The translations under genes and the position numbers were made by a program. Of a stretch of DNA of 64,000 bases, positions 5,886 to 57,241 are shown piece by piece; position 1 is the stretch's first letter, and each line of letters opens with the position of its first letter. Below the pieces are notes generated by a model that did not search any database, was not told the DNA's origin, and was given only the letters and a program-made list of their open reading frames with translations. Source of the stretch: a virus (Duplodnaviria; Heunggongvirae; Uroviricota; Caudoviricetes); IMG/VR virus record IMGVR_UViG_3300037419_001521. One strand, written 5' to 3'.

Positions 5886-5936
5886 TTCCGAAACCGTCAA
5901 TTGTTTAGCCTAACTAATATTTAGATTGGCCCGCTT

Positions 5937-6296
5937 ATGCACGAAAGTATCCACCCCGGCGTGCGCACCGGAAATGATTTGACGCTCGGCGAACGCGTAG
6001 CCGACACCGCAGTCAACGGAATGGGTAGCTGGGCATTCATCGGTATTCAGACGGTCATCGTCATCGCCTGGATAGTGCTGAATCTGATCGCCTGGCGATA
6101 CCGCTGGGACCCCTACCCGTTCATCCTTCTGAACCTCGCGTTTTCCACTCAGGCGGCGTACGCGGCTCCGCTGGTTCTTCTCGCCGGTCGCAGGCAGGAC
6201 ACCCGCAGCCAGGAAATCGCCCGCCATGACCTGGAAACCGACCTGGACACCAACGCGGTCGTCCGAAAAATCGCGGCGAAGCTGGAGGTCGAGTAA
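5937..6296 (+). CDS. DUF1003-like small membrane protein
   Basis: GSWAFIG...WDPYPFILLNLAFSTQAAYAAPLVLL..RRQ pattern typical of the DUF1003 family. Two predicted TM segments. Sits between tail genes. Confidence 0.55.
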   Translation: MHESIHPGVRTGNDLTLGERVADTAVNGMGSWAFIGIQTVIVIAWIVLNLIAWRYRWDPYPFILLNLAFSTQAAYAAPLVLLAGRRQDTRSQEIARHDLETDLDTNAVVRKIAAKLEVE

Positions 6297-6776
6297 ATGG
6301 AATCGAAACGGCGGTTCACCCAGCAAGGCGACTGCGACCCCGCAGATCCTGAAGAGCATTTCTTGTGGGCGCTGACGCAAATTCAGATGGGTCAGTACGA
6401 AGTCATGCCGATCCAGCCGAACACCGCACGCACGATCAGTAAACATCTGCACGAACTCGGTTTCCGGCATCACCCCAAGCTCCAGAAAAAGAAGCTTCAG
6501 ATGCCGGTCCGAGGCCAGCAGAGCGCTTACAACGGCTTGGCTCGATGGGTGCCGATGGAGGCCGACGAACCCGATCCGATGGTACTGCCGGACGTAAGGG
6601 GCATGACGTCGGAAGAGCGCGAATGGATCACCCAGGAACTCAAAGACGTCGGGCATATCACCGACCCGCCGCCGGATATCGGCCCTGTCGCCCGCGTGAC
6701 GTCATGGGAGGACTTGCAGGTTCTGTCGCAGCGCGTGACTACAGCCGAGGCGGTACTTCGCGATGACAGCGCCTAA
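6297..6776 (+). CDS. hypothetical protein (possible moron inside the tail module)
   Basis: 159-aa ORF with a 1-nt gap to the upstream gene. No motif recognised. Confidence 0.45.
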   Translation: MESKRRFTQQGDCDPADPEEHFLWALTQIQMGQYEVMPIQPNTARTISKHLHELGFRHHPKLQKKKLQMPVRGQQSAYNGLARWVPMEADEPDPMVLPDVRGMTSEEREWITQELKDVGHITDPPPDIGPVARVTSWEDLQVLSQRVTTAEAVLRDDSA

Positions 6777-8439
6777 TCAACCGCCTCCGTCCGGCAACTT
6801 CATCTACGCCTACGGTCTCGACCCCTCGGGTGATCAAAGCGTCAGCCACCAGCAGACCGACTGGACCACTCAGACCATTCAATCCGCGCTCGGTGCGGCG
6901 GGAGGTATTACCGGATCGTGGACGAATGCGCAGAACACCCACGCGCAGATCGTTTCTCAGCCGCTGCTCGACAACGCGAATCAGATCGGGCAATCGGCGA
7001 CCACGCTGACCAATCACGAAAACCGCATTCACCGGCTCGAAGACGGCAGCCAGATCGCGGTCTATTACAGCAACGACACCTGGCATAAGCCGAGCGGATT
7101 CACTTACCACCACGTGCATTGCATAGGTGGTTCCGGTGGCGGTCAGGGCGGTCAGGACGCCGGGCCTTTCCAATCCGCTACCGGTACATGCTACGGCGGT
7201 CAGGGCGGCGGTCAGGGCGGTTATCAGATCACCGATTTCGCTGACGCCGACCTGCCGCTGTCTTCGTATTCGATTTCGATCGGCACCGGCGGCTTCGGCG
7301 CGTACGCGTATCTGTCCGATAATTTCCAGCGCGCCGACAACACCGCGTTGGGTGCGTATTGGCGCAACGACTCCGGCGACTCCGGATATCAAGCCGCGAT
7401 CATGAGCAATCGAGCCGAGGCCGGTGTCGTTCCGAGTCCCGGATTCGTCAGCTCCAACCGCATCATCACCTTCCTGAGCACCTACACCGCCGCCGAGCTA
7501 CTGACCGACAACTACGTGGTCACGGCTCAGGTCACGACACCGGTGCGCGGCGAAGCAACCAACCTCGGTTCATTCACCGGCGTGTATATCGCGGCCCCCA
7601 GCACCTACGGCAGCTCGACGAAGTGGGTGGGTTTCGCCGCGTCGGCAACTCGCGGTAGCGCCATGATCACCCAGACCGGAACGCCGGACCTCCAATCGGA
7701 CGGGCAGACGTCGGTCGCGACCTCGACGACCAATATCGCTGACGGCCAGACGATCGCTTTGCGCCGCAACGGCAATGTCTTCACCGGGTTCATCAACGGC
7801 AATCAAGTCTGTCAGTGGACCGACACCGGCAACACCGTGTCCAGCGGGGCCGGGTATCGCCACTTCGGCATCTTGCTGCAAGGCGTGACCTCCGAAGACA
7901 GCCACGGCACCGTAGCCGCGCAGCTGGACTCCCCCGCGATCTCGCAGATCATCGCATCCGACCTCGACGCCACAGCCGGTACGGCAACCACGTTCTCCGG
8001 CGGCGCGGTCACGGTCACCGGCGGTGGTGGCTCTGCGGGGTCGGTGTTCGGCGCGTCCGGTCCAGCAGCGGCCGGTTCCGGCAATCAGACCACGCTCAAC
8101 GCAGGCGGTGGTACGGGTGGCTCGAGTGCGAGTGTTCCCGGCCAGGCCGGTGGTAATGGCGCGGGCTCTACCGGTGGTGCGGGTGGTGTGAATCCCGGCG
8201 ACCCCGGCCACGACGGTGCGAACCTGCCGACCGGTTCATACGGGCCGGGTGCTGGCGGTGGTGGCGGTGCGGGCAGTACGTCAACCAGCGCTGAAGGCGG
8301 TAAAGGCGGTAACGGCGGTTTCCCCGGTGGTGGTGGAGCTGGCGGTGGCGGCACACCCGCGAAGACGAAAAATCCCGGCGGCGGCGGCAATGGCAATGCC
8401 GGATATTGCGTCGTCATCTCCAACAACAGCGCGACATAA
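6763..8439 (+). CDS. glycine-rich minor tail / tail fibre protein
   Basis: 558 aa. C-terminal third is almost pure Gly-rich repeats (GGGGSAGS.., GGNGAGSTGGAGG..), typical of actinophage minor tail proteins. Confidence 0.7.
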   Translation: MTAPNQPPPSGNFIYAYGLDPSGDQSVSHQQTDWTTQTIQSALGAAGGITGSWTNAQNTHAQIVSQPLLDNANQIGQSATTLTNHENRIHRLEDGSQIAVYYSNDTWHKPSGFTYHHVHCIGGSGGGQGGQDAGPFQSATGTCYGGQGGGQGGYQITDFADADLPLSSYSISIGTGGFGAYAYLSDNFQRADNTALGAYWRNDSGDSGYQAAIMSNRAEAGVVPSPGFVSSNRIITFLSTYTAAELLTDNYVVTAQVTTPVRGEATNLGSFTGVYIAAPSTYGSSTKWVGFAASATRGSAMITQTGTPDLQSDGQTSVATSTTNIADGQTIALRRNGNVFTGFINGNQVCQWTDTGNTVSSGAGYRHFGILLQGVTSEDSHGTVAAQLDSPAISQIIASDLDATAGTATTFSGGAVTVTGGGGSAGSVFGASGPAAAGSGNQTTLNAGGGTGGSSASVPGQAGGNGAGSTGGAGGVNPGDPGHDGANLPTGSYGPGAGGGGGAGSTSTSAEGGKGGNGGFPGGGGAGGGGTPAKTKNPGGGGNGNAGYCVVISNNSAT

Positions 8440-8447
8440 GGACTCCT

Positions 8448-8834
8448 GTGCAGAAAAAGATTGCGCGCCTGCATATCGAAGACGTTCAAGGTTACGGCAG
8501 TTACGCGCGCTGCTACGAATTGACGCCACCTATTTTCGACGGCGGGCTCGGCTATAAGTTCATGACAATCGTCGTTCATCCGAAACGCGAGCACGCCGAC
8601 GCTGAAGTGTTCGTTTTCTACGCGAACCATCTCGGGCTTCCGGCGGAGTTGTCGATGAAACGTCGCGGCGGGTCCTTCACTCCTTTGGGTTGTCCTCACG
8701 AAGCCGGTCAGCATTACCTCGACGGATGTTTCGTGTGGGCGCTGGCCTCCAATGGGTACGAAATCGAAGGCTACGGCTACAAAGCGCTTCCGGACGGCCT
8801 GGATTACGACCCGGATGACCTTCCTGATTATTGA
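8448..8834 (+). CDS. hypothetical protein (tail-associated)
   Basis: Start placed at GTG 8448 after an AAGGA RBS, just past the upstream stop. Stop overlaps the endolysin start. Confidence 0.45.
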   Translation: MQKKIARLHIEDVQGYGSYARCYELTPPIFDGGLGYKFMTIVVHPKREHADAEVFVFYANHLGLPAELSMKRRGGSFTPLGCPHEAGQHYLDGCFVWALASNGYEIEGYGYKALPDGLDYDPDDLPDY

Positions 8835-9994
8835 TGCACAACCTGGCGCTTATCGGATTGATTCTCGTTTCCGGCGTCGGGTCGGTTGTCGCGGCTATGT
8901 CCGTGGTCAGCATTCTCCAGCTCTACGACTGGATTTACGAACGTCTTTCTCCTCCAGAAGATTTATACGACAAAGGTGACATCATGGCTGTCCAGCCTAC
9001 ATATACCGAACTCGACCGGATGGGCAATTCTTGCGATTCCCGGTACGGCGCTCGGATCACCAATTTCCTGCTCCACACCGAAGAGGGCAATTCCACCGCC
9101 GAAGGTCTTGCCGCGTTCTGCAACAACACCGGCAACGGCGCGTCCTACCATTACACCGTCCGTAACGGAATCGTCTGCGACGTCGTGGATACCGATTACG
9201 CGAGCTGGTCGGTCGGTGACGCTAATTCCTACACCATCAATTTGTGTTTCGCCGGTTCTCGCGCGGCATGGAGTCGTGACCAGTGGCTGGCTATTTCCGG
9301 TGATTTGCAGATCGCTGCGTGGCTAGCGGTTCAGGATTGCAAGAAGTACGGCATCTCGACCGCTGTGATCGCGCCTCCGTACCACCGCGCGGACGGTATT
9401 TCCGACCATCGGTACGTCACCGACATCATCGGCTGGGGCACGCACACCGACGTCGGCGACAATTTCCCGTGGGACGTCTTCACCGGCTACGTCAACGGGT
9501 ACGTCAATCCCGGCCCGGTCCCGAACGCGATCAACGACAAAGCCGCGCAGGCTAGTTGGCTCGGTACTCGGATCACCGCTGGCGAAGGTGTCTGCCCCGA
9601 CAAGGTCGGCCGGTACGCGCAATTCCAGAACGGATACGTGTATTGGAGCCCGGCCACCGGCGCGCACACCGTCCCGAATTCCCTTTTCGGCAAATGGGCG
9701 ACATTGAAGTGGGAGGCCGGTCTGCTCGGTTACCCGATTCTCGACAACGCGGTAGTGACCGGCGGCGAATGCCAAGCCTTTCAGGACGGCTGCCTCTACC
9801 ACGAAGACGGTAAGCCTGTCGTCGCTGTCCACGGCGCGATTCTGAATTCGTGGGCGAAGGCCGGTTACGAAAAGTCTCCGCTCGGCTGGCCGATTACCGA
9901 TGAAACTCCGTTCGGCGACGGCGTCGTGCAGCAGTTCGACCACGGAAAGATTTATTGGAGCCCGTCGGGCATTGTGACGATCAAGGATCAGTAG
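8831..9994 (+). CDS. endolysin: N-acetylmuramoyl-L-alanine amidase (PGRP/Amidase_2-like) with two C-terminal LGFP repeats; possible SAR N-terminus
   Basis: Amidase_2-like segment (ITNFLLHTEEGNS..SYHYTV..). Two LGFP repeats (LGYPILD.., PLGWPITDE..). N-terminal 30 aa are Gly/Ala/Ser-rich and hydrophobic (LALIGLILVSGVGSVVAAMSVVSIL). Alternative start ATG 8983 has an AAGGTG RBS. Confidence 0.75.
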   Translation: MMHNLALIGLILVSGVGSVVAAMSVVSILQLYDWIYERLSPPEDLYDKGDIMAVQPTYTELDRMGNSCDSRYGARITNFLLHTEEGNSTAEGLAAFCNNTGNGASYHYTVRNGIVCDVVDTDYASWSVGDANSYTINLCFAGSRAAWSRDQWLAISGDLQIAAWLAVQDCKKYGISTAVIAPPYHRADGISDHRYVTDIIGWGTHTDVGDNFPWDVFTGYVNGYVNPGPVPNAINDKAAQASWLGTRITAGEGVCPDKVGRYAQFQNGYVYWSPATGAHTVPNSLFGKWATLKWEAGLLGYPILDNAVVTGGECQAFQDGCLYHEDGKPVVAVHGAILNSWAKAGYEKSPLGWPITDETPFGDGVVQQFDHGKIYWSPSGIVTIKDQ

Positions 9995-9996
9995 TA

Positions 9997-10740
9997 GTGA
10001 AATTCGGTCTCAACCCCACCCCTCCGGAAGCCGTTTCGCTGAAGCTGTCGAATTACCTCGACCTCGGCGCGCTTCCGAAGATTCCCGGCAGTTTCGGGCA
10101 TGAAAATATCCTCACCGATTACGGGATGCTGGCCAATGACCAGTACGGGGATTGCGTCGTCGCCGGTGCGTGTCACGAAGTGATGATCTGGAATGCCGCC
10201 GCAGGCCATCCGGTGCCGACCTTCACCGACGAAACCGCGCTGGCGGACTACTCGGCGATCACCGGATTCACGCCCGACGATCCGAGCACCGATCAGGGTA
10301 CCGACATGGCCGCCGCTGCGCGGTACCGGAAGAACACCGGCATCGTCGATGCGGCCGGTAACCGGCATAAAGTCGCTGCGTATCTGGCAATCGAGCCGGG
10401 CAACCTCCACGAGCTGGCGGCGGCGTCGTATCTGTTCGGAGCTGTCGGAATCGGCATCGAAGTCACCGACGTCGCGATGAATCAGTTCGAAAACGGCCAG
10501 CCTTGGAGCTACCGGCGCGGCGGAAATATCCTCGGCGGCCACTACGTGCCGATCGTCGCGAAGCGGCAGGGATATTACATCGCGGTCACCTGGGGAAAGC
10601 TCCAGAAAATGACGTGGGCGTTCTATGTCCAGCGCAGCATGACCGCAATCGCCTACGTATCCGAGGAATACCTCAACAACGGCGTTTCGCCCGAGGGATT
10701 CAACAAAACAGCGCTGCTGCGCGACCTCGGACGACTGTAA
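9997..10740 (+). CDS. C39/papain-like cysteine peptidase-domain protein (lysis-associated)
   Basis: Q-x3-DCVVAGACHEVM resembles the Cys motif of C39-like peptidases. Downstream GGHYVPIV is His-motif-like. GTG start 3 nt after the endolysin stop, with an AAGGA RBS. Confidence 0.45.
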   Translation: MKFGLNPTPPEAVSLKLSNYLDLGALPKIPGSFGHENILTDYGMLANDQYGDCVVAGACHEVMIWNAAAGHPVPTFTDETALADYSAITGFTPDDPSTDQGTDMAAAARYRKNTGIVDAAGNRHKVAAYLAIEPGNLHELAAASYLFGAVGIGIEVTDVAMNQFENGQPWSYRRGGNILGGHYVPIVAKRQGYYIAVTWGKLQKMTWAFYVQRSMTAIAYVSEEYLNNGVSPEGFNKTALLRDLGRL

Positions 10741-10756
10741 GAAAAGGAAAACATAT

Positions 10757-10990
10757 ATGCTGACCTACCTGAAGAGCCTGTGGGCGATGGAGCCTGTCCG
10801 CAGCGTTCTGTATACCGTCCTGACTGGCCTCGTCGGTATTCTGTTGATCAAGGCTGGCTTTACGTCGAATGTCGGTGATCTGATCGACGCGATTATCGCC
10901 GCTGTGCTCGGAATTCCGGCCACTGAAATCGTTCGCTCGCAGGTTTGGCCCTCCGCGAAGGTAGCTGCGATCACCGCTCCGAAGGTGTGA
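10757..10990 (+). CDS. holin-like small membrane protein
   Basis: 77 aa with two hydrophobic segments. Strong RBS (GAAAAGGAAA). Immediately follows the lysin genes. Confidence 0.5.
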   Translation: MLTYLKSLWAMEPVRSVLYTVLTGLVGILLIKAGFTSNVGDLIDAIIAAVLGIPATEIVRSQVWPSAKVAAITAPKV

Positions 10991-10991
10991 T

Positions 10992-11309
10992 GTGACTACC
11001 GGCCTCGCTACAGCGATCCTGACGTTGCTTGTCGGGAGTGACATCCTGCAAGTACTCGCCAGTCTGTGGGCTACCCGGCGCAAACGTGGGGCTGATACCG
11101 CAAGCGAATTAGCTAAGAACGCATTAGCGCAGGTGACCAGCCTGCAAGAGCGCTACGGCGCAATGGAGCGTAAATACGATTCGCTCGAGGAGGATATCCG
11201 GAAATTCCGGGAGGCACTTTATCCACACCAGCGGTGGGACATGCTCGCCCACAAGGAGGCGCTGAAAAGTGATCCCAATTTCCCGTCCCCGCCCGAGTTG
11301 TTCATCTGA
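10992..11309 (+). CDS. membrane protein with N-terminal TM and coiled coil (lysis-associated)
   Basis: GTG start 1 nt after the holin stop. N-terminal TM segment followed by a charged coiled-coil region. Confidence 0.4.
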   Translation: MTTGLATAILTLLVGSDILQVLASLWATRRKRGADTASELAKNALAQVTSLQERYGAMERKYDSLEEDIRKFREALYPHQRWDMLAHKEALKSDPNFPSPPELFI

Positions 11310-11346
11310 GCGCCCGCACACCCCTATTCATCAGAACTGAGATTTC

Positions 11347-11739
11347 ATGTCATACGATTCCAATACCGGTATCCGTGACGGTCAGCCTTTCGAATTCAAG
11401 GCCGCTGCCGCCGAGACCGCTTCCACCACCCACGCTGTCGCGCACCTCACCGGGGCGTCCGTCGCTTCGATCACCGTCAAGGTCACCGCCGCGTCCGGCA
11501 CCACTCCGACTCTGCTCGTCACTGTCGAGGGCTCCGACGACGGCAGCACTTGGTACACCCTCGGCCAGATCGGCGCGAACGGTAGCGCTGTCGGTGCCAC
11601 TGCGACCGCCCCGACGAACTTCACCACCTCTGCGACCGGCCGAGGCGCTTTCGTGGTCCCCGAGTTCATCCGGACGCGCTCTACGATCGGCGGCACCACC
11701 CCGAGCTTCACCTATTCGGTCGAGGCCGTTCTGTCCTGA
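11347..11739 (+). CDS. hypothetical Ser/Thr/Gly-rich protein
   Basis: 130-aa ORF with GC-rich third codon positions. Followed by a strong terminator. Confidence 0.45.
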   Translation: MSYDSNTGIRDGQPFEFKAAAAETASTTHAVAHLTGASVASITVKVTAASGTTPTLLVTVEGSDDGSTWYTLGQIGANGSAVGATATAPTNFTTSATGRGAFVVPEFIRTRSTIGGTTPSFTYSVEAVLS

Positions 11740-11750
11740 TGTCCAACCTA

Positions 11751-11800
11751 AGAACCCCCCCGGCCTCAGTAGTTATCTACCGGCCGGGGGGGTTCTTTTC
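11751..11800 (+). terminator. intrinsic terminator T0 (first unit of the hairpin array)
   Basis: AGAACCCCCCCGGCC / GGCCGGGGGGGTTCT inverted repeat followed by TTTTCG. Confidence 0.7.
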
Positions 11801-11904
11801 GTTGACCGAAACTTGCTACCACGCGCACTTCGGTCGTCCCGCCCGCCACATCCCATCGCGTCGAGTCGGGACACTCACCATACAGTCTCCGACACCCTCG
11901 GGTC

Positions 11905-11941
11905 CACCGGATTGACCCCCTCGCAACGCATCCGGTAGCCT
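11905..11941 (+). promoter_or_regulatory. promoter-like P0 (-10 TAGCCT at 11936-11941)
   Basis: CCCTCGCAACGCATCCGGTAGCCTGACGGCG is homologous to the P1 block. The -10 fits TANNNT. Confidence 0.4.
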
Positions 11942-12043
11942 GACGGCGAACGAGGGTTCGGACAGCTACATGAGGCCGAGGGCCAGCAGGACGATGCACG
12001 TTTCCGCCAGGACCGAAGTCGCATCCCGACCAGTTCACGAGGT

Positions 12044-12098
12044 AGACCCCCGGTATCGGTGAAGTTATCTGTCCTTCATCGCCGCCGGGGGTCTTTTC
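12044..12098 (+). terminator. terminator T1
   Basis: AGACCCCCGG ... CCGGGGGTCTTTTCG. Stem extended by TATCGGTGAAG / CTTCATCG. Confidence 0.65.
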
Positions 12099-12099
12099 G

Positions 12100-12136
12100 C
12101 GTATCCCCCTGCGACGCAGCAACTTCCTGGTATCCT
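12100..12136 (+). promoter_or_regulatory. promoter-like P1 (extended -10 TGGTATCCT)
   Basis: TGnTANNNT extended -10 at 12128-12136, about 30 nt after the T1 T-tract. Confidence 0.45.
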
Positions 12137-12244
12137 GACGGCGTGTCTCCGATAGGCACTGCGTGCGACCTGCCCGACCGGATATATTTCCGGCCCGTCA
12201 GGACCGACTAGTTGATGATGAGGGCGGGCACTTCGCACTAAGGG

Positions 12245-12293
12245 AGACCCCCGGCTGTGAACTGCGAACAACTCTCCAGTCGGGGGTCTTTTC
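12245..12293 (+). terminator. terminator T2
   Basis: AGACCCCCGGCTG ... CAGTCGGGGGTCTTTTC. Confidence 0.65.
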
Positions 12294-12299
12294 ATGAAT

Positions 12300-12331
12300 T
12301 CGCCTGCGCCGCAGCAGGTTCCTGGTATTCT
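12300..12331 (+). promoter_or_regulatory. promoter-like P2 (extended -10 TGGTATTCT)
   Basis: GCGCCGCAGCAGGTTCCTGGTATTCTGA is homologous to P1. Confidence 0.45.
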
Positions 12332-12426
12332 GATGAGGTGCCCCAGATGGGTACACGGCCTATCTTCCCGTTCAAGCGCATCTGTAATCGACAACCGAGC
12401 CGAGCGGGCTCTGGCCATCATGAGGG

Positions 12427-12476
12427 AGACCCCCGGTGTGTGGACGCAATGCCCGCTTTCGGCCGGGGGTCTTTTC
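12427..12476 (+). terminator. terminator T3
   Basis: AGACCCCCGG ... GGCCGGGGGTCTTTTC. Confidence 0.65.
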
Positions 12477-12479
12477 ATA

Positions 12480-12509
12480 TTGACTGCCCCGCAACACTTC
12501 CGATAACCT
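12480..12509 (+). promoter_or_regulatory. promoter-like P3 (-10 TAACCT)
   Basis: CCGCAACACTTCCGATAACCTGACA is a degenerate copy of the P1 block. Confidence 0.35.
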
Positions 12510-12550
12510 GACACTGCTTGTCTCCGTTCGCTCGGATCAGGCGTCGCACA

Positions 12551-12604
12551 AGACCCCCGGTTCGATGAAGATCCCTATGCCTTCATCGAACCGGGGGTCT
12601 TTTC
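12551..12604 (+). terminator. terminator T4
   Basis: Perfect 16-bp stem CCCCGGTTCGATGAAG / CTTCATCGAACCGGGG followed by TCTTTTCG. Confidence 0.7.
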
Positions 12605-12605
12605 G

Positions 12606-12640
12606 TGTATCCACGCGCAGCGCAGTGCTTCTGGTAGACT
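12606..12640 (+). promoter_or_regulatory. promoter-like P4 (extended -10 TGGTAGACT)
   Basis: CGCGCAGCGCAGTGCTTCTGGTAGACTCGGA is homologous to P1. Confidence 0.45.
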
Positions 12641-12684
12641 CGGAGTATCAGCACAGTTACGCTGATCTGAAGGAGAACCCGCAG

Positions 12685-12750
12685 GTGTGGGTTGTGCTCA
12701 TGGAGCACATCCGCCAGTGCGCGGAGTACAGCCGCCGCATTGACGCATGA
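12685..12750 (+). CDS. possible 21-aa micro-ORF inside array unit 4
   Basis: AAGGAGAA RBS 9 nt before GTG 12685 (VWVVLMEHIRQCAEYSRRIDA). Stop falls inside the T5 hairpin. Not conserved in other units. Confidence 0.25.
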   Translation: MWVVLMEHIRQCAEYSRRIDA

Positions 12751-12793
12751 CCCCCGGTTTCGGTAGCTGCCCTACTGGAGCCGGGGGTTTTTC
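12749..12793 (+). terminator. terminator T5
   Basis: GACCCCCGG ... CCGGGGGTTTTTC. Confidence 0.6.
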
Positions 12794-12878
12794 GGTATCA
12801 TTGCGACCGGCTGCTCATCAGATATGCGGCGGCCCGACGTGAGATCAAAAGCCCTCGGCGCAGGGTTCTCACACCTTC

Positions 12879-12934
12879 AGACCCCCGGTATCGGTGGAGC
12901 ACACGCCCGCTTCATCGCCGCCGGGGGTCTTTTC
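12879..12934 (+). terminator. terminator T6
   Basis: AGACCCCCGGTATCGGTGGAG ... CTTCATCGCCGCCGGGGGTCTTTTCG. Near-copy of T1. Confidence 0.65.
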
Positions 12935-13503
12935 GTGTGTTACAGTCCTAGATACAAGTCGGCCCCGGAAGGTGCTCCAACACCAACCAGGGCCTGGGTG
13001 AGAATCTAGACCGAGGCAGATTCAGCACCGTAGGACCAGATCCTACCAATGATTCTGGCTATCAGCCAATCTCTCCCACTTGCGTCACTGACGCGTGTCT
13101 GCGTGCTGCGACCCGCCGTTCCGGTATGGGCGAGCCCGTCGTGTGTCGGTGACTGCTGCCCGCACGACGGAAGGGAGATTCATTCGCGCCTTGACGACAG
13201 GCGTTATAGGCACGTTCGCCTCAAACCAACAGCCCCGGTAGATGTCTCTAACGAAAGCCTGCGGTACCGGTCGCAGGGCCGTCGACCTGGCCTGATCAGC
13301 TGCGTCGCCGGTGAACTGAAGCCTTGCGCCCACCCGGACGTGAGGCTATCGGCGCTGGGTTGGCAAGCGGAGACGGACAATTGGGATGGCACGGCCTGGG
13401 ATGGCCAACTTGACAAGCATTTATTCCTATCCAGACCCCAGCCCTTGTCCGCTTCGATCGAATACAGTTATAAATGGCTAACAGTCAGCGAAAGGACTGA
13501 GAC

Positions 13504-13866
13504 GTGACCAGATCGGTCAAATTCAATCGACGCTCCCCGCACCAGCGACCCACTACCCCCTGCTTGTGGTGTGGCACGGAAGTACGCGGAGGGCAGGCAT
13601 CCTATTGCCATGACACTCACCGCGAAGCCGCACGCAAAGCTCGTCGCCGCCGCAAAGATTGGAAGAACGGCGGCCTGACCGGATGCGACATGCCGGACGA
13701 GCCCAGTTACGCCGACCGGGGGCTAGCCGTCAGCGCCAGCCGTGCCAGCGGGCTCGAGATCTTCGTCTGCAAGTGCGGAGAGTACCACGTCGTTCCTGTT
13801 GGGGCCGGAGGTGAATCGCCGGAGTTTTACACATGGAAGCCGAACCCTAATAGACGTCAGGAGTAG
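13504..13866 (+). CDS. hypothetical zinc-ribbon protein
   Basis: 120-aa ORF with CLWCG...CHDTH and CKCGEYH motifs. Confidence 0.45.
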   Translation: MTRSVKFNRRSPHQRPTTPCLWCGTEVRGGQASYCHDTHREAARKARRRRKDWKNGGLTGCDMPDEPSYADRGLAVSASRASGLEIFVCKCGEYHVVPVGAGGESPEFYTWKPNPNRRQE

Positions 13867-13974
13867 GCAAGCCTGAGTTGGGGTTGATTTGTGGGCAACA
13901 CTGGGTATCCGTGGGGTGTAACACCCTAACCTCACTTACGATTCAAGCGATGACTGAACACACAGGAGATCAGC

Positions 13975-14526
13975 ATGGCAAAGAAGGTGATCGTCACTCA
14001 TCAGGCGATCGACGATCTAGACGGCAAAGAGCTAGGCCCGGAAGACGACGGTAAGACCGTTCACTGGTCCATCGAAGGGGAACACCTCGAGATGGAGCTG
14101 TCCGAGGCCAACAGGCAGCTATTCCTCGCCGACATGGAGAAGTGGAGACGTATCTCCCGACCGGATGGTGCACCTCGGCGCAAAGACGAAGCCGCTAAGC
14201 CGATCAGCACTACAACAGGCCCACTCGGGGAGCTTCTGCCGGATGCCAAACGCGTTGCCCCCCAAGGCAAAAAGGCTAAGGCGGCACCGACAGGCAAGGC
14301 CAAACGAGATAAGACCAGATGGCGTGTCGGCATCCGCACCTGGGCCGCAGAGAACGGTATCGACTGCCCCGCGACGGGCCGTGTGCCGAGGACAGTCACG
14401 GACGCTTGGGACAGAGCGCATCCAAAAGAAGCGGCAGCGATCCACAAAAAGGTGGCAGCCGCCAAAGGCGCAAAAGAGCACGACCTACTCAGCATGGATG
14501 AAGACAGCGAGGACGCAGCAGCATGA
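13975..14526 (+). CDS. Lsr2-like nucleoid-associated DNA-binding protein
   Basis: N-terminus MAKKVIVTHQAIDDLDGKELG..TVHWSIEGEHLEMELSEAN matches the Lsr2 dimerisation domain. C-terminus IRTWAAENGIDCPATGRVPRTVTDAWDRAH matches the Lsr2 RGR DNA-binding motif. AGGAG RBS. Confidence 0.75.
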   Translation: MAKKVIVTHQAIDDLDGKELGPEDDGKTVHWSIEGEHLEMELSEANRQLFLADMEKWRRISRPDGAPRRKDEAAKPISTTTGPLGELLPDAKRVAPQGKKAKAAPTGKAKRDKTRWRVGIRTWAAENGIDCPATGRVPRTVTDAWDRAHPKEAAAIHKKVAAAKGAKEHDLLSMDEDSEDAAA

Positions 14527-15092
14527 CGAACAATCGAGTGAAGAGCGCCATCCCCTCCGGGATCAAGTGCCGAAGGAACGGGCAGCATACCTGGGACGAG
14601 ACCGGTGACGCGGGCATAGAAATCAAGGGGGACGCCGCGCTCTACATCCGATTCAAGTGCCTCAACAACTGCGGCGGAATCAAAACGAGACGCTGGACCG
14701 CAGACGGCGTGCGCGCTACCTGGGAAGAGTCCGCAGCAGACAAGATCACCTACACCGACCCCAGCTACCTGCTGAAGAAGACCGCCGACGAAGATATCGA
14801 CGAACTCAAAGGCGCGCTCCAGACCGCGATCAGCCAGGCGGTGGTTCAGATGTGCGACCCGAAGGGCACGCTGTCGAAGCCCACCAAGAAGACTCCAGCC
14901 AAGAAGACGGCCGCCAAGAAGGTCACAGCTAAGACGGTCACGGCCAAGAAGGTCGCCGAGGCGGAGCCATTGAAGCGCGCCAGTGAGCGCAAGCCTGCGG
15001 CCCGAACCTCCCGCAAGCCGGTGGAGCCGGTCGGCGGCCGGAAGACTGCCGCGAAGCAGCCGACGAGTAGACGCGCCAAGCAGTCGGCGTAA
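14523..15092 (+). CDS. DNA-binding protein with histone H1/HupB-like Lys/Ala-rich tail
   Basis: C-terminal PTKKTPAKKTAAKKVTAKTVTAKKVAE repeats. ATGA overlap with the Lsr2-like gene. Confidence 0.55.
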   Translation: MTNNRVKSAIPSGIKCRRNGQHTWDETGDAGIEIKGDAALYIRFKCLNNCGGIKTRRWTADGVRATWEESAADKITYTDPSYLLKKTADEDIDELKGALQTAISQAVVQMCDPKGTLSKPTKKTPAKKTAAKKVTAKTVTAKKVAEAEPLKRASERKPAARTSRKPVEPVGGRKTAAKQPTSRRAKQSA

Positions 15093-15095
15093 AGC

Positions 15096-15147
15096 AAAAC
15101 CCCCGGCTCCTGCGGATCGATTGAGATCCTGTGGAACACCGGGGGTT
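15096..15147 (-). terminator. stem-loop terminator serving the leftward block (possibly bidirectional)
   Basis: AAAACCCCCGGCTCC...CACCGGGGGTT. On the minus strand it is followed by a TTTTGCTTT tract. Confidence 0.55.
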
Positions 15148-15209
15148 AGCTGTATGCCCTGGGGCCAGCCGAGTTATGTCACGTGACGGAATTGGCCGGC
15201 TGGGACCCG

Positions 15210-15452
15210 TCAGATGCGGGTATGCTCCTTCCCGTCGTCGTCCCATCCGACAGGCTTGACCGACTCCGGGCCGTTCTCGATTGCGCGCGTCAGGCGGCGA
15301 GCGGCCAAACCCACCTGCTCCTCCGAATACTCCTGCTCGGCCGCAGCGTGCGCGGATTCCTCCGCCTTCTCGGCAGACAGGAAACGCAGGACGGCTTGCA
15401 CCAGCTCGTTGTGAGCTGCGTAGAACTCGCCCAATCCATCCGGGTTGCGCAT
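15210..15452 (-). CDS. small acidic protein, paralogue A (related to 18031-18267)
   Basis: C-terminus GLAARRLTRAIENGPESVKPVGWDDD aligns with ALAARALTEAVDILPDDSKPVGWIRD in the paralogue. Start at ATG with a GGGGAA RBS. Confidence 0.5.
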   Translation of the reverse strand: MRNPDGLGEFYAAHNELVQAVLRFLSAEKAEESAHAAAEQEYSEEQVGLAARRLTRAIENGPESVKPVGWDDDGKEHTRI

Positions 15453-15478
15453 CTCGTTCCCCTGCTTCTGAACGGCAA

Positions 15479-15754
15479 TCACCAGATGATCACCAGCTTC
15501 TGATAGTCGTGCACGTCGTTGATGCAGACCGCGTACCGAGCCCCGCTGTTGATCGCCGAGGAAAGCCTCTGCTGGCACTCGTACGGCAGCAGGAACCCGT
15601 GCTCTTCCCGTGTCCCCGGCTTCGGCTTCTGGAACCCTCCTGCGGAGCCGGTACCGCCGATGGGGCCAGGATCAGCCCCGGCGATTCCCACCGCGCCAGC
15701 AGTGGCCGCGACCGCCGAGAATGCAACGGCGGCGATCGTCTTCTTGATGTTCAT
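15479..15754 (-). CDS. small secreted protein (signal peptide plus about 65-aa mature part with two Cys)
   Basis: MNIKKTIAAVAFSAVAATAGAVGIAGA-DPG is a classical signal peptide. GAAGAGGAAA RBS. Lies inside a longer spurious ORF. Confidence 0.6.
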   Translation of the reverse strand: MNIKKTIAAVAFSAVAATAGAVGIAGADPGPIGGTGSAGGFQKPKPGTREEHGFLLPYECQQRLSSAINSGARYAVCINDVHDYQKLVIIW

Positions 15755-15834
15755 TCGATTTCCTCTTCCCCCCGAAGGGTGTGGGTTGCCGACAAATCGT
15801 ATCATCGGCGAAATATATTGCGGTGTAACGATTC

Positions 15835-16530
15835 TCAGCTCCACAGCTGAGGCATGATGTCGACGAAGTCTTTGCGCGCCTGCTGGATTCGAGCGTCGTA
15901 CTCCAATTCGCGCTGACGCCTGGCTTCGGACGCGGCCCTTTCTTCCGGCGCCGACCGCCGCCGTGTATGCCGCGCGATAGTGCCATCTTCGCGATAGACC
16001 GGCTGGAAATCGTCGCCGTACAGCTGCCGCGCCTTCGCGAAGACGGCCATTTCCTCGTCGGTGTAGGTCGGCCGCCCCTCTCCGAGTCGGTTGATCAGAT
16101 CCTCGTAAATCTCGCGTCGGGCTTCGCGGTCGGCGACCGAATAACCGAGGTGATAGCGAAGCGAAGCGATAGCCAGGTCGTTGAACGACGAATCGAACTC
16201 GTCGATGATCCAATCGATATCTTTCAGATACTTCGGCCCGTTCACGAGTTCGAGGTAGCTTTTCCCGAAGGTCTCGATATCGAGGGTCAGGCCGAACGAC
16301 AACAGCAGCTGCCAGCCCTGGGTTCGAGTGCGCCCGAACCGAAATCGCGGATCGATGTCATAATCGAAACGCTCGCGCAGAGTGACGGAAAGCGCCCTCC
16401 CGAAGTAAACGGTCCAGCTGAAGTGTGAACGCTCTCGCTCGAATCGGATCTTAGAAAGCTTCAATCCGATGGTCCACGCGCCGACAGCCGTGCAGATACC
16501 GAGCGCTACTGAGATGATCATGACCTTCAA
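15835..16530 (-). CDS. membrane-anchored protein
   Basis: 231 aa. N-terminal TM (MKVMIISVALGICTAVGAWTIGL). Stop overlaps the next gene. Confidence 0.5.
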   Translation of the reverse strand: MKVMIISVALGICTAVGAWTIGLKLSKIRFERERSHFSWTVYFGRALSVTLRERFDYDIDPRFRFGRTRTQGWQLLLSFGLTLDIETFGKSYLELVNGPKYLKDIDWIIDEFDSSFNDLAIASLRYHLGYSVADREARREIYEDLINRLGEGRPTYTDEEMAVFAKARQLYGDDFQPVYREDGTIARHTRRRSAPEERAASEARRQRELEYDARIQQARKDFVDIMPQLWS

Positions 16531-50589: not shown

Positions 50590-52200
<1,611 letters not shown>

Positions 52201-54422: not shown

Positions 54423-54602
54423 ATGTCCGACAAGTTCCTAACCCGAGCGCAAGTTGCCGAAAGGCTTGATCTCGCACCAAAAACCCTTGCCAACTGGGCA
54501 TCTGCTGGCAAGGGGCCGAGGTGCATTCGCCTCGCTGGCGGTGCCGTCCGGTATCCGCGCGAGGAGTACGAAGCCTGGGAGCAGCAGCAGCTCACCGCAT
54601 AA
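54423..54602 (+). CDS. xis: excisionase-like HTH protein (59 aa)
   Basis: MSDKFLTRAQVAERLDLAPKTLANWASAGKGP is a MerR/Xis-type HTH. Lies directly upstream of int. Confidence 0.6.
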   Translation: MSDKFLTRAQVAERLDLAPKTLANWASAGKGPRCIRLAGGAVRYPREEYEAWEQQQLTA

Positions 54603-54616: not shown

Positions 54617-55723
54617 ATGGCAAGCGTCTGGATTCAGCCGAAAAACGGAAAATACCTGGTCCGCTGGTATGTCGACGACCCGAAGGCCGAGAAGTCGGAG
54701 ACCTTCACCAAGCTGGGGAATACGAAGACTCCCGGCACGGCGAAGTACCGCCAGCGCGAGCTGGAAGAACAGCTAGCCAAGGGGACGTACGTCGACCCAA
54801 AGCTCGGAAAGCAGAAACTTGGTGCGGTCGTTGACAAGTGGGCGGCTCGCGCCAACGTCGAGAGCACCGAGGATATTCGCCAGTCATTCCGCAATGACCT
54901 CGGCGACTTGGCTGGAATGGCCGTTGATGACATCCGGGCTCCACATGTGCGCGACTGGCTTGATGTTCTGCGCAACGGCCGTCCATGGGCCGGAGGAACG
55001 GCTCTCGCTCCCGGCACGGTGAAGCGCCGCCTCGACATGCTGAAAACCGTGCTCAACCAGCTGGTTTCCGATGAAGTCCTGGTGAAGAATCACGCGGCGA
55101 ACGTGAAGGCCCCGCCGGTCAGTTCGGTTGTGCTGCCGGAAGATTTGATGACCCTCTCCGACGCCCAGATCATCCTCAAGGAGGCCCGCGACAGCCGACT
55201 GAGGGCGATGTGCTCGGTGTCGATGAAATGCGGTCTACGGCCCGCTGAGGTGGCAGGACTACGCGTCCGGGACATCCTGGTCGACGCGTGCTCTATCGCG
55301 GTCATGCAGCAGATCACCCGCAGGCGAGTGGCGACAAGCGTACTGAAGACGGAGACGTCGCGTCGAATCATTGCAGCACCGGCCGATCTCATCGCCGATC
55401 TCACGCCGTTCATGCAGGGCAAAGGGCTCGACGATCTGCTGTTCACTACCGCGAACAACCGGCCGTACAGCAGCAAGGATCTCGGCGATTGGCTCGCCCG
55501 CCGGACGGTCAGTGCGGGGCTGCCGCGTCAGTTCACCTGGAAGGACTTCCGGCACTTCTACGCGTCCTGCCTGATCTTTCAGGGGATCAACGTGAAGACC
55601 GTGCAGAAGAGCATGGGACACGCCTCGGCTTCGATCACTCTGAACGTTTACACGCACCTGTGGCCGAACCAGGAAGCGGCGGTCAGGAGCGCGGTCGAGG
55701 ACATCTGGGGCTTGGCAGCCTAA
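54617..55723 (+). CDS. int: tyrosine integrase
   Basis: SAM-like N-domain. Catalytic C-domain with R...HxxR...Y (FRHFYASCL...LNVYTHL). AAGAAAGAG RBS. Confidence 0.85.
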   Translation: MASVWIQPKNGKYLVRWYVDDPKAEKSETFTKLGNTKTPGTAKYRQRELEEQLAKGTYVDPKLGKQKLGAVVDKWAARANVESTEDIRQSFRNDLGDLAGMAVDDIRAPHVRDWLDVLRNGRPWAGGTALAPGTVKRRLDMLKTVLNQLVSDEVLVKNHAANVKAPPVSSVVLPEDLMTLSDAQIILKEARDSRLRAMCSVSMKCGLRPAEVAGLRVRDILVDACSIAVMQQITRRRVATSVLKTETSRRIIAAPADLIADLTPFMQGKGLDDLLFTTANNRPYSSKDLGDWLARRTVSAGLPRQFTWKDFRHFYASCLIFQGINVKTVQKSMGHASASITLNVYTHLWPNQEAAVRSAVEDIWGLAA

Positions 55724-55732
55724 CCCCCTGGG

Positions 55733-56018
55733 GGTATATCCCGGAACAGCCGCTACCACTGGTGAGTTCCGGGATATCTCCGGGATGAGCGGCTCGGAAT
55801 TGGACATATCGGAACGCTGAATCCCTCTGACCTGCATGTTCGCTAGATTTCGGGTCACTTGCGCTTGCTCTTACCCACGAACGCAGAACCTACCAGATTG
55901 GGGTCCCGATCTCCTGCCTGACCTGCATTTTTGCCCCTCCCCCGAGTTCCCGGCATCTCCCCGGCATGACCTGGGCTTCCTCGTCTGTTCCGGGAAATCT
56001 CCGGGATCTCCGGTATAC
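55733..56018. other. putative attP region with arm-type integrase-binding repeats
   Basis: Four copies of GTTCCGGGA(T/A)ATCTCCGGGAT-like sites at 55733-47 (inverted), 55766-86, 55945-67 and 55987-56018. They flank a central region containing an 11-bp direct repeat CTGACCTGCAT (55827-37 and 55918-28). Confidence 0.55.
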
Positions 56019-56401
56019 GGTACGGGGGTATTTTGTGGATGTCAGGGCCGTCTCGGGAGGGGCCGGGAAGTGCCAGGATAAGGGACAGTTTCGACCTCTA
56101 CGTCCCACGCGGAACTACCTTCGCCGCCGCTGTCGCGGTGTTGAGTCAGATCCTATGCCCCGAGGGCCGTATCGGCGTGTCGCAACATGACACACCGGTG
56201 AATTTTTCCGCCCAGCAATCGGGCAGTTACGAGACACGCCGATACGGGGCGACACGCCGCTAATGACCAGGGGTTTTCCGGAACCGACTTGACGGGGCTA
56301 CTGTCGACCGGGCGTACTGCAATCAGCCCGAGAGGGTGCCAACCAAATAAAGAGCCCCCCACCGGATGTAGCGATCCAGTGAGGGGCGGAAACCAGGAAG
56401 A

Positions 56402-57241
56402 ATGGACCTTCCCAGCATGCGAAATGCTATCAGCCGTCGTCGCACGGCCATCACCCCCTTCACCGATCTGTCCGGTATCGCGGAGCAGGCCGCCGGTCGC
56501 CTCGGAATCCAGGACAACCCCGCGCTGACCCTCGCGAAGTCCGACAACGAGATCGCACAGGACCGCCGCCTGGCCGAGGAGATCCGCACCCACGATCGCA
56601 ACGATGCCCGCGCCAGTGCCGAATCCGCTGCCCGCCGGGCTGCCAAGCGACGCAAGCTCGAAGAGCAGATCGAAGACATCGAACTCGCCGACGAGCTGGC
56701 CGCCCTTCAGGCGCGCGTGAACCACCGCCGGGCCGCCGACCCTCACGCTATGACCGCCGCCTTGCACCGGATGGGGAAGCGTCTACCCGGCGCGCTCATC
56801 GGTGTCGCGGTCGTCGGCACGCTGTGGTCGGGCGTCAACGTCCAGCACAACCTCTTCCCCGTCGCGAACTTCGCCGACCCCCTGTACTGGATTTCGTTCG
56901 GCTTCGAAGCCCTGATCTCGGTCCCGTTGATCGTCATCATGGCCACCACCGCTGTCGCCGCGAAGCACGGCCGTGAGGTCAACCGCCGCAAGGTGGTCCT
57001 TATCGAGGCGGCCCTGCTCGGCTTGTCGATCGCGCTGAACGTCGGTCCGCATATCGGCCACGGGCGGGAGATGCTGGAGTTCGGTCTCGCGCCGGTCATG
57101 GTCGCTGCGGCGGTGTGGCTGCACCCGTGGGTCTCCGGTATCTTCGCCGGTCTGATCGCCGACACCATGCCCGCCCCGGCGGACCGCGAGCTTCACCCCG
57201 TCGAGATCGCTCCCAACGGTGCGGAGATCGTCGCTGCTTGA
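56402..57241 (+). CDS. membrane protein (DUF2637-like)
   Basis: Basic coiled-coil N-terminus followed by 4-5 TM segments. Confidence 0.45.
   Translation: MDLPSMRNAISRRRTAITPFTDLSGIAEQAAGRLGIQDNPALTLAKSDNEIAQDRRLAEEIRTHDRNDARASAESAARRAAKRRKLEEQIEDIELADELAALQARVNHRRAADPHAMTAALHRMGKRLPGALIGVAVVGTLWSGVNVQHNLFPVANFADPLYWISFGFEALISVPLIVIMATTAVAAKHGREVNRRKVVLIEAALLGLSIALNVGPHIGHGREMLEFGLAPVMVAAAVWLHPWVSGIFAGLIADTMPAPADRELHPVEIAPNGAEIVAA

What the first reader, a model, noticed from the sequence alone, without database searches (positions are those of the whole stretch)
55733..56018. attP architecture: four arm-type sites plus an 11-bp direct repeat pair downstream of int
GTTCCGGGA(T/A)ATCTCCGGGAT-like sites occur as an inverted pair on the left (55733-47 and 55766-86) and as two copies on the right (55945-67 and 55987-56018). 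The centre holds CTGACCTGCAT twice, 91 bp apart. The core does not look like a tRNA 3' end, so the phage may integrate into a protein-coding gene or another non-tRNA locus.
Basis: seen in the sequence. Interest (0 to 1): 0.5.

Follow-up and report, generated by a model that had tools for sequence, protein, structure and literature searches.

The report
Phage attachment site targeting a gene start
The repeats downstream of the integrase gene are a classical phage attachment site (attP), and its 21-bp crossover core copies the first codons of a conserved Nocardia gene of unknown function (DUF5926) rather than a tRNA, so this is a well-defined but ordinary kind of integration module with a new target.

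Summary
Window 55730-56031, just after xis (54423-54602) and a tyrosine integrase gene (54617-55723), has the anatomy of a lambda-type attP. It carries KYTCCGGGAWA arm-type repeats on both sides, one inverted plus two tandem on the left, two degenerate plus three tandem on the right.

The crossover core is not the CTGACCTGCAT pair but a 21-bp segment between the two copies, 55859-55879 (TTGCGCTTGCTCTTACCCACG). A Nocardia beijingensis integrated element has an integrase 61-63% identical, the same arms and the same boxes. It is bounded by a 21-bp direct repeat that matches this segment at 20 of 21 positions. The reverse complement of that repeat is the start codon plus codons 2-6 and two bases of codon 7 of the host DUF5926 gene (MGKSKRN, near-invariant in Nocardia).

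A more distant relative (44%) sits inside a ligD Prim-Pol gene. A 76% relative keeps the arms but has a different ~75-bp core cassette. No tRNA is involved. The integrase N-terminal domain co-varies with the arm-repeat sequence.

TGACCTG occurs three times and GGGGGTAT marks both edges; both motifs are conserved and unexplained. No lysogen of this exact phage and no empty attB were seen. This is a new member of a known kind, of modest interest.

The parts
54423..54602 (+). xis-like gene for a recombination directionality factor (59 aa, HTH_17/MerR-type)
   Evidence: Pfam HTH_17 at 6.9e-9. PHROG 66 'excisionase and transcriptional regulator' at 1.8e-11. A gene is called here in L001-L009.
54617..55723 (+). 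Tyrosine integrase gene (368 aa) with three predicted domains: N-terminal arm-binding, core-binding and catalytic
   Evidence: Pfam Phage_integrase at 7.4e-19. PHROG 1 integrase at 2.2e-44. Invariant R208, K244, R312, H335 and Y345 in alignment A4. AlphaFold model with a 3-strand sheet plus helix at residues 2-55, pLDDT 84-91. Foldseek hits to Tn1549 Int and to full-length lambda Int. The protein is 100% identical to P0001, found on ten metagenome contigs.
55730..56031 (.). attP as a whole (about 302 bp), delimited by the sequence block conserved among related elements
   Evidence: Alignments A1 and A2. Similarity to relatives starts at GGGGGTAT just after the int stop codon and ends at ACGGGGGTAT.
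55730..55737 (+). Left edge motif GGGGGTAT
   Evidence: One of only two copies in the window. Invariant in all four relatives in A1.
55736..55747 (-). Arm-type site P1 (inverted; reverse complement GTTCCGGGATAT)
   Evidence: I9, 100% complementary to P2. Present in L012, replaced by a hairpin in L013 and L010.
55766..55786 (+). Arm-type sites P2 (GTTCCGGGATA) and P3 (TCTCCGGGAT), in tandem
   Evidence: Invariant TTCCGGGA..TCTCCGGGA in window, L012, L013 and L010, and present in L181.
55827..55837 (+). Left CTGACCTGCAT box (accessory motif, not the core)
   Evidence: Conserved in L010, L013 and L181, and as CTGAACTGG in L180. It stays on the element side of the junction in the integrated elements.
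55841..55915 (.). Variable core cassette, the stretch replaced by unrelated sequence in the 76%-identical relative L012
55859..55879 (.). Predicted common core TTGCGCTTGCTCTTACCCACG (crossover region). Its reverse complement is C GTG GGT AAG AGC AAG CGC AA.
   Evidence: It matches at 20 of 21 positions the 21-bp direct repeat TTGCGCTTGCTTTTACCCACG that bounds the N. beijingensis element (L010 rc 8710-8772 region; L208 rc about 15972-15992). In L180 host identity starts 31 nt after the start of the box, and the window core starts 32 nt after it.
55855..55878 (-). Mini-ORF GTG GGT AAG AGC AAG CGC AAG TGA (MGKSKRK*), a copy of the 5' end of the host DUF5926 gene
   Evidence: The host gene L208 15972-16892 begins VGKSKRNSP. 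118 of the 120 best DUF5926 clusters, nearly all named Nocardia, begin M/VGKSKRN.
55887..55892 (-). -10-like hexamer TAGGTT (TANNNT) 8 nt upstream of the GTG; inferred replacement promoter for DUF5926 after integration
   Evidence: Read directly from the sequence. The same spacing is seen for the host TAAGTT and for TACGCT in the N. beijingensis element. This is inference only; the sigma-70 scan found nothing.
55918..55928 (+). Right CTGACCTGCAT box
   Evidence: Conserved in L012 and at the far junction in L208.
55946..55967 (.). Degenerate arm-type pair P'1/P'2 (GTTCCCGGCAT CTCCCCGGCAT), orientation ambiguous
   Evidence: D10, I18. TTCCCGG is invariant in window, L012 and L208.
55967..55974 (+). 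Third TGACCTG box (TGACCTGG)
   Evidence: Invariant TGACCTG in A2.
55987..56016 (+). Arm-type sites P'3 (GTTCCGGGAAA), P'4 (TCTCCGGGAT) and P'5 (TCTCCGGTAT), in tandem
   Evidence: (D1, D2). Conserved in L012 and L208.
56024..56031 (+). Right edge motif GGGGGTAT, within the invariant block ATACGGTACGGGGGTAT

Best explanation
Window 55730-56031 is the attP of a temperate actinophage, probably a Nocardia phage, that uses a lambda-type (heterobivalent) tyrosine integrase.

Mechanism. The integrase's N-terminal domain binds the KYTCCGGGAWA arm-type repeats: P1 inverted, P2 and P3 on the int-proximal arm, and P'1 to P'5 on the distal arm. Its core-binding and catalytic domains act on the 21-bp core at 55859-55879. 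Strand exchange with an identical or near-identical sequence in the host inserts the phage. That host sequence is the start codon plus the first 6 2/3 codons of the conserved DUF5926 gene.

Consequences. Because attP carries a copy of those codons, the host reading frame is rebuilt at the junction next to the P' arm, where the gene would now be transcribed from phage DNA. A -10-like TAGGTT lies 8 nt upstream of the GTG. At the other junction the host promoter is left driving a 7-codon stub. The upstream 59-aa HTH_17 protein is the likely excisionase.

What is shown: the repeats, their conservation, the junction positions in related integrated elements, the coding identity of the core, and the co-variation of the N-domain with the arm repeats.

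What is inferred: that this particular phage uses this core, the exact overlap region (proposed GCGCTTG, 55861-55867), promoter replacement, and which protein binds the TGACCTG and GGGGGTAT motifs.
For: (1) Position. xis and int lie immediately upstream, and gene callers find no gene between int and the next ORF.

(2) Statistics. The 21-mer occurs twice against 0 expected. The 11-mer, TGACCTGS and GGGGGTAT are all confined to this region.

(3) Conservation. The arms, boxes and edge motifs are shared with L012 (int 76%), L013 (61-62%) and the N. beijingensis element (61-63%). The left arm and box are also present in L181 (43-44%) and, with variant arm repeats, in L180 (44%).

(4) Junctions.
- The N. 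beijingensis element has P arm, box and core next to host DNA at one end, and core, box and P' arm next to DUF5926 at the other. It carries TTGCGCTTGCTTTTACCCACG as a direct repeat at both ends, and this matches window 55859-55879 at 20 of 21 positions.
- The L180 element interrupts a 322-aa ligD Prim-Pol gene that is intact in L206 and L207. Host identity begins 31 nt after the start of the box.

(5) Target. The reverse complement of the core is GTG GGT AAR AGC AAG CGC AA, matching the MGKSKRN start of DUF5926, which is found in 118 of the 120 best clusters, nearly all named Nocardia. L013's core carries synonymous variants (ATG...CGG) of the same peptide.

(6) Protein-DNA co-variation.
- P0005 keeps 77% identity in the N-domain but only 37-39% elsewhere, and it has the same arm repeats.
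- P0006 has 42% N-domain identity and variant repeats (TCACGGGAWTT).
- P0002 has 95% N-domain identity, identical arms and a different core.

(7) Structure. The predicted N-terminal fold is a three-strand sheet plus helix, and full-length lambda Int is among the fold matches.

(8) Variation. Among the contigs of the same phage, no variant position falls in an arm unit, a box or the core.
Against: - No lysogen of this exact phage was found. All ten contigs carrying the identical integrase are collinear with the window.
- No empty attB was seen directly. It is reconstructed from attL and attR of a 61-63% relative.
- A scan of 185,579 species genomes with a 23-mer found nothing. That pattern included 4 phage-specific bases, so it could not match attB and is uninformative.
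- The window core differs from the N. beijingensis repeat at one position (a synonymous AAG/AAA change), so the true host may be another species.
- The N. beijingensis element is a ~15-kb, possibly defective element with its int module inverted. Its assembly near the junction folds back through a REP-like hairpin.
- The inverted core-type half-sites are weak in the window (5 of 12 matches on the C side).
- The sigma-70 scan finds no promoter.
Confidence: 0.85

Rival explanations
1. It is attP, but the CTGACCTGCAT direct repeats are themselves the crossover or core sites, as the finding's 'centre' implies.
For: They are exact and unique to this region. They flank the centre, are conserved in relatives, and their reverse complement (CAGGTCA) resembles the putative C half-site GGGTCAC (read directly from the sequence).
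Against: In the N. beijingensis element the left box stays with the P arm at one junction and the right box stays with the P' arm at the other. The duplicated sequence at the two ends is the 21-mer between the boxes. In L180 host identity starts 31 nt after the start of the box. A 91-bp spacing and direct orientation do not fit a tyrosine-recombinase core.
Confidence: 0.03
2. The repeats are operators or regulatory sites (for a repressor or for Xis acting as a transcription factor) that control int or the downstream 279-aa gene, or they are replication iterons, rather than recombination sites.
For: Clustered repeats in an intergenic region next to regulatory genes are also typical of operators and origins. 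A separate repeat set (GACACGCC three times, 56167-56262) lies just to the right. The TGACCTG and GGGGGTAT motifs have no assigned binder.
Against: Element/host junctions in three independent Nocardia genomes fall inside the homologous region, with arms partitioned as expected for attL and attR. The arm repeats co-vary with the integrase N-domain. A dual role is not excluded, since arm sites overlapping int regulation are known in other phages (PMC2951348, title and abstract listing).
Confidence: 0.05
3. It is an attP in form, but the phage in the window is not able to integrate (a decayed or orphan module) or uses a different host locus from DUF5926.
For: No lysogen of this exact phage was found. 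Close relatives have retargeted cores: L012 has an unknown target and L180 targets ligD. The C-side half-site is weak in the window.
Against: xis and int are intact and identical on ten contigs from several samples, with no variation in arms or core. The core reproduces the near-invariant DUF5926 start codon-for-codon, with only a synonymous difference.
Confidence: 0.07

Closest known systems
Lambda-type heterobivalent tyrosine integrase systems (lambda Int with POP' attP; mycobacteriophage L5 Int with attP sites P1-P7 and Xis gp36)
   Same: - An attP of about 300 bp next to int, with xis adjacent.
- Repeated arm-type sites on both sides of a central core, in tandem pairs or triplets and including one inverted site.
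- A three-domain integrase with an N-terminal sheet-plus-helix domain.
- A common core duplicated at the ends of a related integrated element.
   Different: - The integrase is at most ~32% identical to any deposited phage integrase, and the att DNA matches none of 50,697 phage records.
- The core lies at the start of a protein-coding gene, not at a tRNA 3' end (L5) or an intergenic site (lambda).
- There are extra conserved TGACCTG boxes and GGGGGTAT edge motifs with no known counterpart.
- IHF-type sites were not assessed.
Mycobacterium abscessus MabC/MabN prophages integrating at attB-12 and attB-13 (Dedrick et al. 2021, PMC8092301)
   Same: These are tyrosine-integrase prophages of a mycolic-acid actinobacterium. 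[quoted passage not shown] The paper reports short cores of 3-25 bp at non-tRNA sites.
   Different: - The host genes differ (MAB_3824, MAB_3947), and the prophage ends that carry the common core are unrelated; both records start TAC....
- Those phages place attP inside the repressor gene (integration-dependent immunity). Here attP is intergenic, with no gene called across it.
Corynebacterium and Rhodococcus phage tyrosine integrases (SamW, Troy, Lederberg, Sleepyhead, corynephage 304L)
   Same: They are the best integrase matches among deposited phages, at 30-32% identity over more than 90% of the length.
   Different: They are too distant to share att sites. Their attP and attB were not examined here.

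Membership tests
Heterobivalent (lambda-type) tyrosine integrase / attP module | Tyrosine-recombinase catalytic domain with the R-K-(H)xxR-H/W-Y residues | tested here: met
   Pfam PF00589 at 7.4e-19. R208, K244, R312, H335 and Y345 are invariant in alignment A4. The first His of HxxR is replaced by Lys in the window protein.
Heterobivalent (lambda-type) tyrosine integrase / attP module | Separate N-terminal arm-binding domain (three-stranded sheet packed on a helix) | tested here: met
   The AlphaFold model has strands 2-9, 12-19 and 26-30 and helix 42-55, with pLDDT 84-91. Full-length lambda Int (1z1b, 5j0n) aligns over 360-365 columns. This is a prediction only; no Pfam arm-domain model matched at E<=1.
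Heterobivalent (lambda-type) tyrosine integrase / attP module | Repeated arm-type sites on both sides of the core, with a sequence different from the core | tested here: met
   The repeats co-vary with the N-domain across relatives.
Heterobivalent (lambda-type) tyrosine integrase / attP module | Common core shared by attP and attB and duplicated at both ends of the integrated element | tested here: inconclusive
   Met in a relative: the N. beijingensis element has a 21-bp direct repeat at both ends. For the window phage there is only homology, at 20 of 21 positions. No lysogen of this phage and no empty attB were seen.
Heterobivalent (lambda-type) tyrosine integrase / attP module | Inverted core-type half-sites flanking a 6-8 bp overlap region | tested here: inconclusive
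   A candidate is GGGTCACTT / GCGCTTG / CTCTTACCC (55852-55876). The extended 12-nt half-sites match each other at 10 of 12 positions in L013, 8 of 12 in L010 and only 5 of 12 in the window (read directly from the sequences). Cleavage positions are unknown.
Heterobivalent (lambda-type) tyrosine integrase / attP module | Adjacent recombination directionality factor (Xis) | tested here: met
   A 59-aa HTH_17 protein lies 14 nt upstream of int. PHROG 66 excisionase at 1.8e-11. A similar gene is present in L012, L181 and L180.
Heterobivalent (lambda-type) tyrosine integrase / attP module | Int-dependent attP x attB recombination | not testable with these tools
   This needs an integration assay or in vitro recombination.
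tRNA-targeting attP (core = 3' end of a tRNA or tmRNA gene) | The core contains a tRNA or tmRNA 3' segment, and a tRNA gene lies at the prophage junction | tested here: not met
   ARAGORN finds no tRNA in the window or in L010, L011, L180, L181, L012 and L013. Rfam at E<=1 gives no tRNA or tmRNA hit in 55600-56500. The junctions lie in protein-coding genes.
Integration-dependent immunity modules (attP inside the repressor gene) | The attP core lies within a repressor ORF that is truncated by integration | tested here: not met
   No gene is called between int and the 279-aa ORF in any of L001-L006. Only a 7-codon ORF crosses the core.

The most novel reading that the evidence does not exclude
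This integrase family may use a modular, retargetable attP scaffold. The arms, three TGACCTG boxes and GGGGGTAT edges stay fixed, while a ~75-bp core cassette is exchanged to redirect integration to different protein-coding genes: the DUF5926 start, the interior of ligD, and an unknown gene in L012. Each cassette that targets a gene start may bring its own start codon and promoter, so that the prophage takes over transcription of the host gene. The TGACCTG and GGGGGTAT motifs would then be sites for an accessory factor that has not yet been described.
Probability: 0.3. Interest if true: 0.5.

Novelty: new member of a known kind. Interest (0 to 1): 0.3.

Why it matters
- It gives a base-level attP map and a predicted attB for an uncultured actinophage whose integration module has no counterpart among deposited phages.
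- The target, the first 21 bp around the start of DUF5926, is a single gene whose first seven residues are near-invariant in the best-matching clusters, which are nearly all named Nocardia. The xis-int-attP cassette (about 1.7 kb) is therefore a candidate single-copy integration vector for Nocardia, a genus with few genetic tools.
- It adds an example of a tyrosine-integrase element inserting at a gene's translational start while rebuilding the reading frame.
- Comparison with relatives shows core-cassette swapping under conserved arms, which bears on how integrases acquire new targets.
- None of this changes current understanding of site-specific recombination.

Tried and rejected
- **Near and distant DNA searches of 50,697 phage records.** The int-att region and the att region alone gave no match. 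A 24-kb stretch of the window matched only ribonucleotide-reductase genes.
- **Scan of species genomes for TCACTTGCGCTTGCTNTTACCCA.** It gave 0 hits. In hindsight the pattern carried 4 bases of phage-specific flank, so it could not match attB, and one of the two capped scans was wasted.
- **Arm-motif and core-motif scans of IMG/VR and of JGI metagenome contigs.** Only chance hits appeared. None of the 80 metagenome loci encodes an integrase relative.
- **First reading of L010, that the element sits upstream of ribBA.** I pursued this with a RibBA-based scan and nine element-free N. beijingensis loci and then rejected it. The host flank is a multi-copy REP-like hairpin. The L010 contig folds back through it, L011 starts inside it, and the ribC contig of the same genome ends in it. 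The true neighbour is DUF5926, at the other end of the element.
- **A 19-nt match of the att region to a Marmoricola contig.** It lies in a coding region and is a chance hit.
- **Rfam.** There is no RNA family in the att region or at the junctions.
- **M. abscessus attB-12 and attB-13 cores.** They are unrelated to this core.
- **Sigma-70 promoter scan.** It found nothing in 55650-56450.

Full report
**Observation.**
- GTTCCGGGAWATCTCCGGGAT occurs exactly twice in 64 kb, at 55766-55786 and 55987-56007. None is expected in 100 shuffles even with three mismatches allowed.
- The left inverted partner is ATATCCCGGAAC at 55736-55747 (I9).
- The right site is three tandem units (55987-56016), and 55946-55967 is a degenerate pair.
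- CTGACCTGCAT occurs only at 55827 and 55918.
- I add a third TGACCTG at 55967-55974. Three of the four TGACCTGS hits in the window are here, all on one strand.
- I also add GGGGGTAT, which occurs only twice in the window, at the two outer edges 55730-55737 and 56024-56031.

**Context.** The ORF is a tyrosine integrase. Its real start is the ATG at 54617 (368 aa), and it is 100% identical to P0001 on ten metagenome contigs.
- A 59-aa HTH_17/excisionase-like gene lies just upstream, at 54423-54602.
- Gene callers place nothing between int and a 279-aa ORF at 56402.
- The window is a novel high-GC phage. Only a ribonucleotide-reductase gene matches deposited actinophages at the DNA level. The best deposited integrase matches are about 31% identical Corynebacterium and Rhodococcus phages.
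- No tRNA gene exists anywhere in the window, and Rfam finds no tRNA or tmRNA fragment in 55600-56500.

**Relatives.** The protein search gave integrases at 76% (P0002), 62% (P0003), 61% (P0004, N. beijingensis), 43% (P0005, N. brasiliensis) and 44% identity (P0006, Nocardia sp. CA-128927). Their loci were read.
- L012 (76%) has xis, int and then the same left arm, both CTGACCTGCA boxes, the same right arm and both GGGGGTAT edges. The ~75 bp between the boxes (window 55841-55915) is unrelated sequence, so the core cassette has been swapped.
- L013 and L014 (62%) have the left arm, the box and a core like the window's. Both contigs end at the same base just beyond the core.
- L181 (43%) has TTCTCCGGGAAATCTCCGGGATATC and a CTGACCTGG box, followed by host-like DNA that runs to a thiO-like (Pfam DAO) gene.
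- L180 (44%) has variant repeats (CTCACGGGAATTTCACGGGATTTCGGG) and a CTGAACTGG box, followed by host genes.

**Junctions.** For L180, two related genomes without the element (L206, L207) carry an intact 322-aa LigD Prim-Pol gene where L180 has a 91-aa stump abutting the element. Host identity begins at CTTCTGCATGAAC, 31 nt after the start of the box. That element is therefore inserted inside a protein-coding gene, and the crossover lies about 31 nt to the right of the box.

For the N. beijingensis element, both ends were recovered. In window orientation:
- The int-proximal end reads ...GGGTCAC|TTGCGCTTGCTTTTACCCACG|AGGGGTCAAC..., continuing into a host REP-like element.
- The far end reads host ...TTAGGACTG|TTGCGCTTGCTTTTACCCACG|GTGCGCGAG..., followed by TGACCTGCAT, the P' arm repeats and ACGGGGGTAT.

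The 21-bp direct repeat is thus the common core. The window carries it at 55859-55879 with one difference, starting 32 nt after the start of the left box, which is consistent with L180.

**Target.** The reverse complement of the repeat is C GTG GGT AAA AGC AAG CGC AA. In L208 this is the start of a 306-aa DUF5926 gene (VGKSKRNSP...).
- Of the 120 best DUF5926 clusters, nearly all named Nocardia, 118 begin M/VGKSKRN.
- The window core encodes the same residues with a synonymous AAG. L013's core uses ATG...CGG for the same peptide.
- Integration would therefore rebuild the DUF5926 reading frame at the P'-arm junction and leave a 7-codon stub (MGKSKRK*) behind the host promoter at the other junction.
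- A TANNNT hexamer lies 8 nt upstream of the GTG in the host flank (TAAGTT), in the N. beijingensis element (TACGCT) and in the window (TAGGTT, reverse complement of 55887-55892). I infer that the phage supplies a replacement promoter. A sigma-70 scan finds nothing, so this step is weak.

**Link between integrase and repeats.** Domain-wise identities to the window integrase, from a MAFFT alignment, are given.
- P0002: N-domain 95%, core-binding domain 80%, catalytic domain 69%. The arms are identical and the core is different.
- P0005: 77%, 37%, 39%. The arm repeats are the same.
- P0006: 42%, 44%, 47%. The arm repeats are variant.

The N-terminal domain therefore tracks the arm sequence. The AlphaFold model shows three strands plus a helix at residues 2-55 (pLDDT 84-91) ahead of the core-binding and catalytic domains. 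Foldseek returns Tn1549 Int and full-length lambda Int. Variant positions among contigs of the same phage avoid the arm units, the boxes and the core.

**A false lead.** L010 seemed to place the element upstream of ribBA. Nine element-free N. beijingensis loci showed that the flank is a multi-copy nested-hairpin (REP-like) element. L010 contains a 210-bp fold-back through it, L011 starts inside it, and the ribC contig of the same genome ends in it. The ribBA adjacency is an assembly artefact or an inversion and plays no part in the conclusion.

**Comparison with known systems.** The anatomy and the protein are those of lambda/L5-type heterobivalent integrase systems.
- Integration of tyrosine-integrase prophages at the translational start of a host ORF, with transcription then arising in the prophage, has been described for M. 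abscessus attB-12 and attB-13 (PMC8092301).
- Those prophage ends are unrelated, and those phages place attP within a repressor gene, which is not the case here.
- No deposited phage shares this att DNA.

**Verdict.** This is an attP, and its predicted target is the 5' end of DUF5926. It is a new member of a known kind.
- Open points are the binder of the TGACCTG and GGGGGTAT motifs, the exact cleavage sites, the host species, and the absence of a direct lysogen or an empty attB for this phage.
- Interest is modest (0.3), mainly as a potential Nocardia integration tool and as an example of core-cassette retargeting.

Noticed in passing
window 56160-56275 and 56354-56387: A second repeat set lies just to the right of attP. 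GACACGCC occurs three times, with a perfect 15-nt inverted repeat (56167-56181 / 56233-56247), and a GC-rich hairpin lies at 56354-56387. All of this is upstream of a 279-aa ORF (56402-57241) that has no Pfam or PHROG match. The repeats are conserved in L012 (about 2880-2985). This may be an operator or regulatory region.
   Followed up: no
L012 2547-2640: The 76%-identical relative keeps the arms and boxes but has a different, AT-richer core cassette. Its reverse complement also carries a start codon and a mini-ORF (MSYRNVATIT*), which hints at a different host gene start as target. That target was not identified.
   Followed up: partly
L010 8499-8708; L182-L205 ribC-ribBA spacers; L197 4900-4950: N. 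beijingensis carries multi-copy nested-hairpin (REP-like) elements. Many contigs end in them. One strain shows ribC joined to rpsO/ribF through one, and L010 has a 210-bp fold-back that scores, below threshold, as a plant miRNA family in Rfam. These elements are a likely cause of misassembly or inversion.
   Followed up: partly
L208 about 600-15995; L209 whole: The N. beijingensis element that shares the window's core is only about 15 kb. It has int, HTH regulators, small ORFs, a 301-aa and a 98-aa protein, a 1583-aa tape-measure-like protein and DUF6953. No terminase, portal or capsid gene was seen among its called genes, and its int module is inverted relative to the att site. It is either a phage remnant or a satellite-like element.
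   Followed up: no
L180 7120-7317: The integrase of the ligD-inserted element has a C-terminal extension of about 60 aa, with HC..H and CRAC motifs (zinc-ribbon-like), that is absent from the other family members.
   Followed up: no
window 50952-51926: The ribonucleotide reductase small-subunit gene is the only part of the 24-kb stretch searched (window 30000-54000) with nucleotide similarity (77-79%) to deposited Gordonia, Mycobacterium and Arthrobacter phages. The rest of that stretch matched no deposited phage.
   Followed up: no
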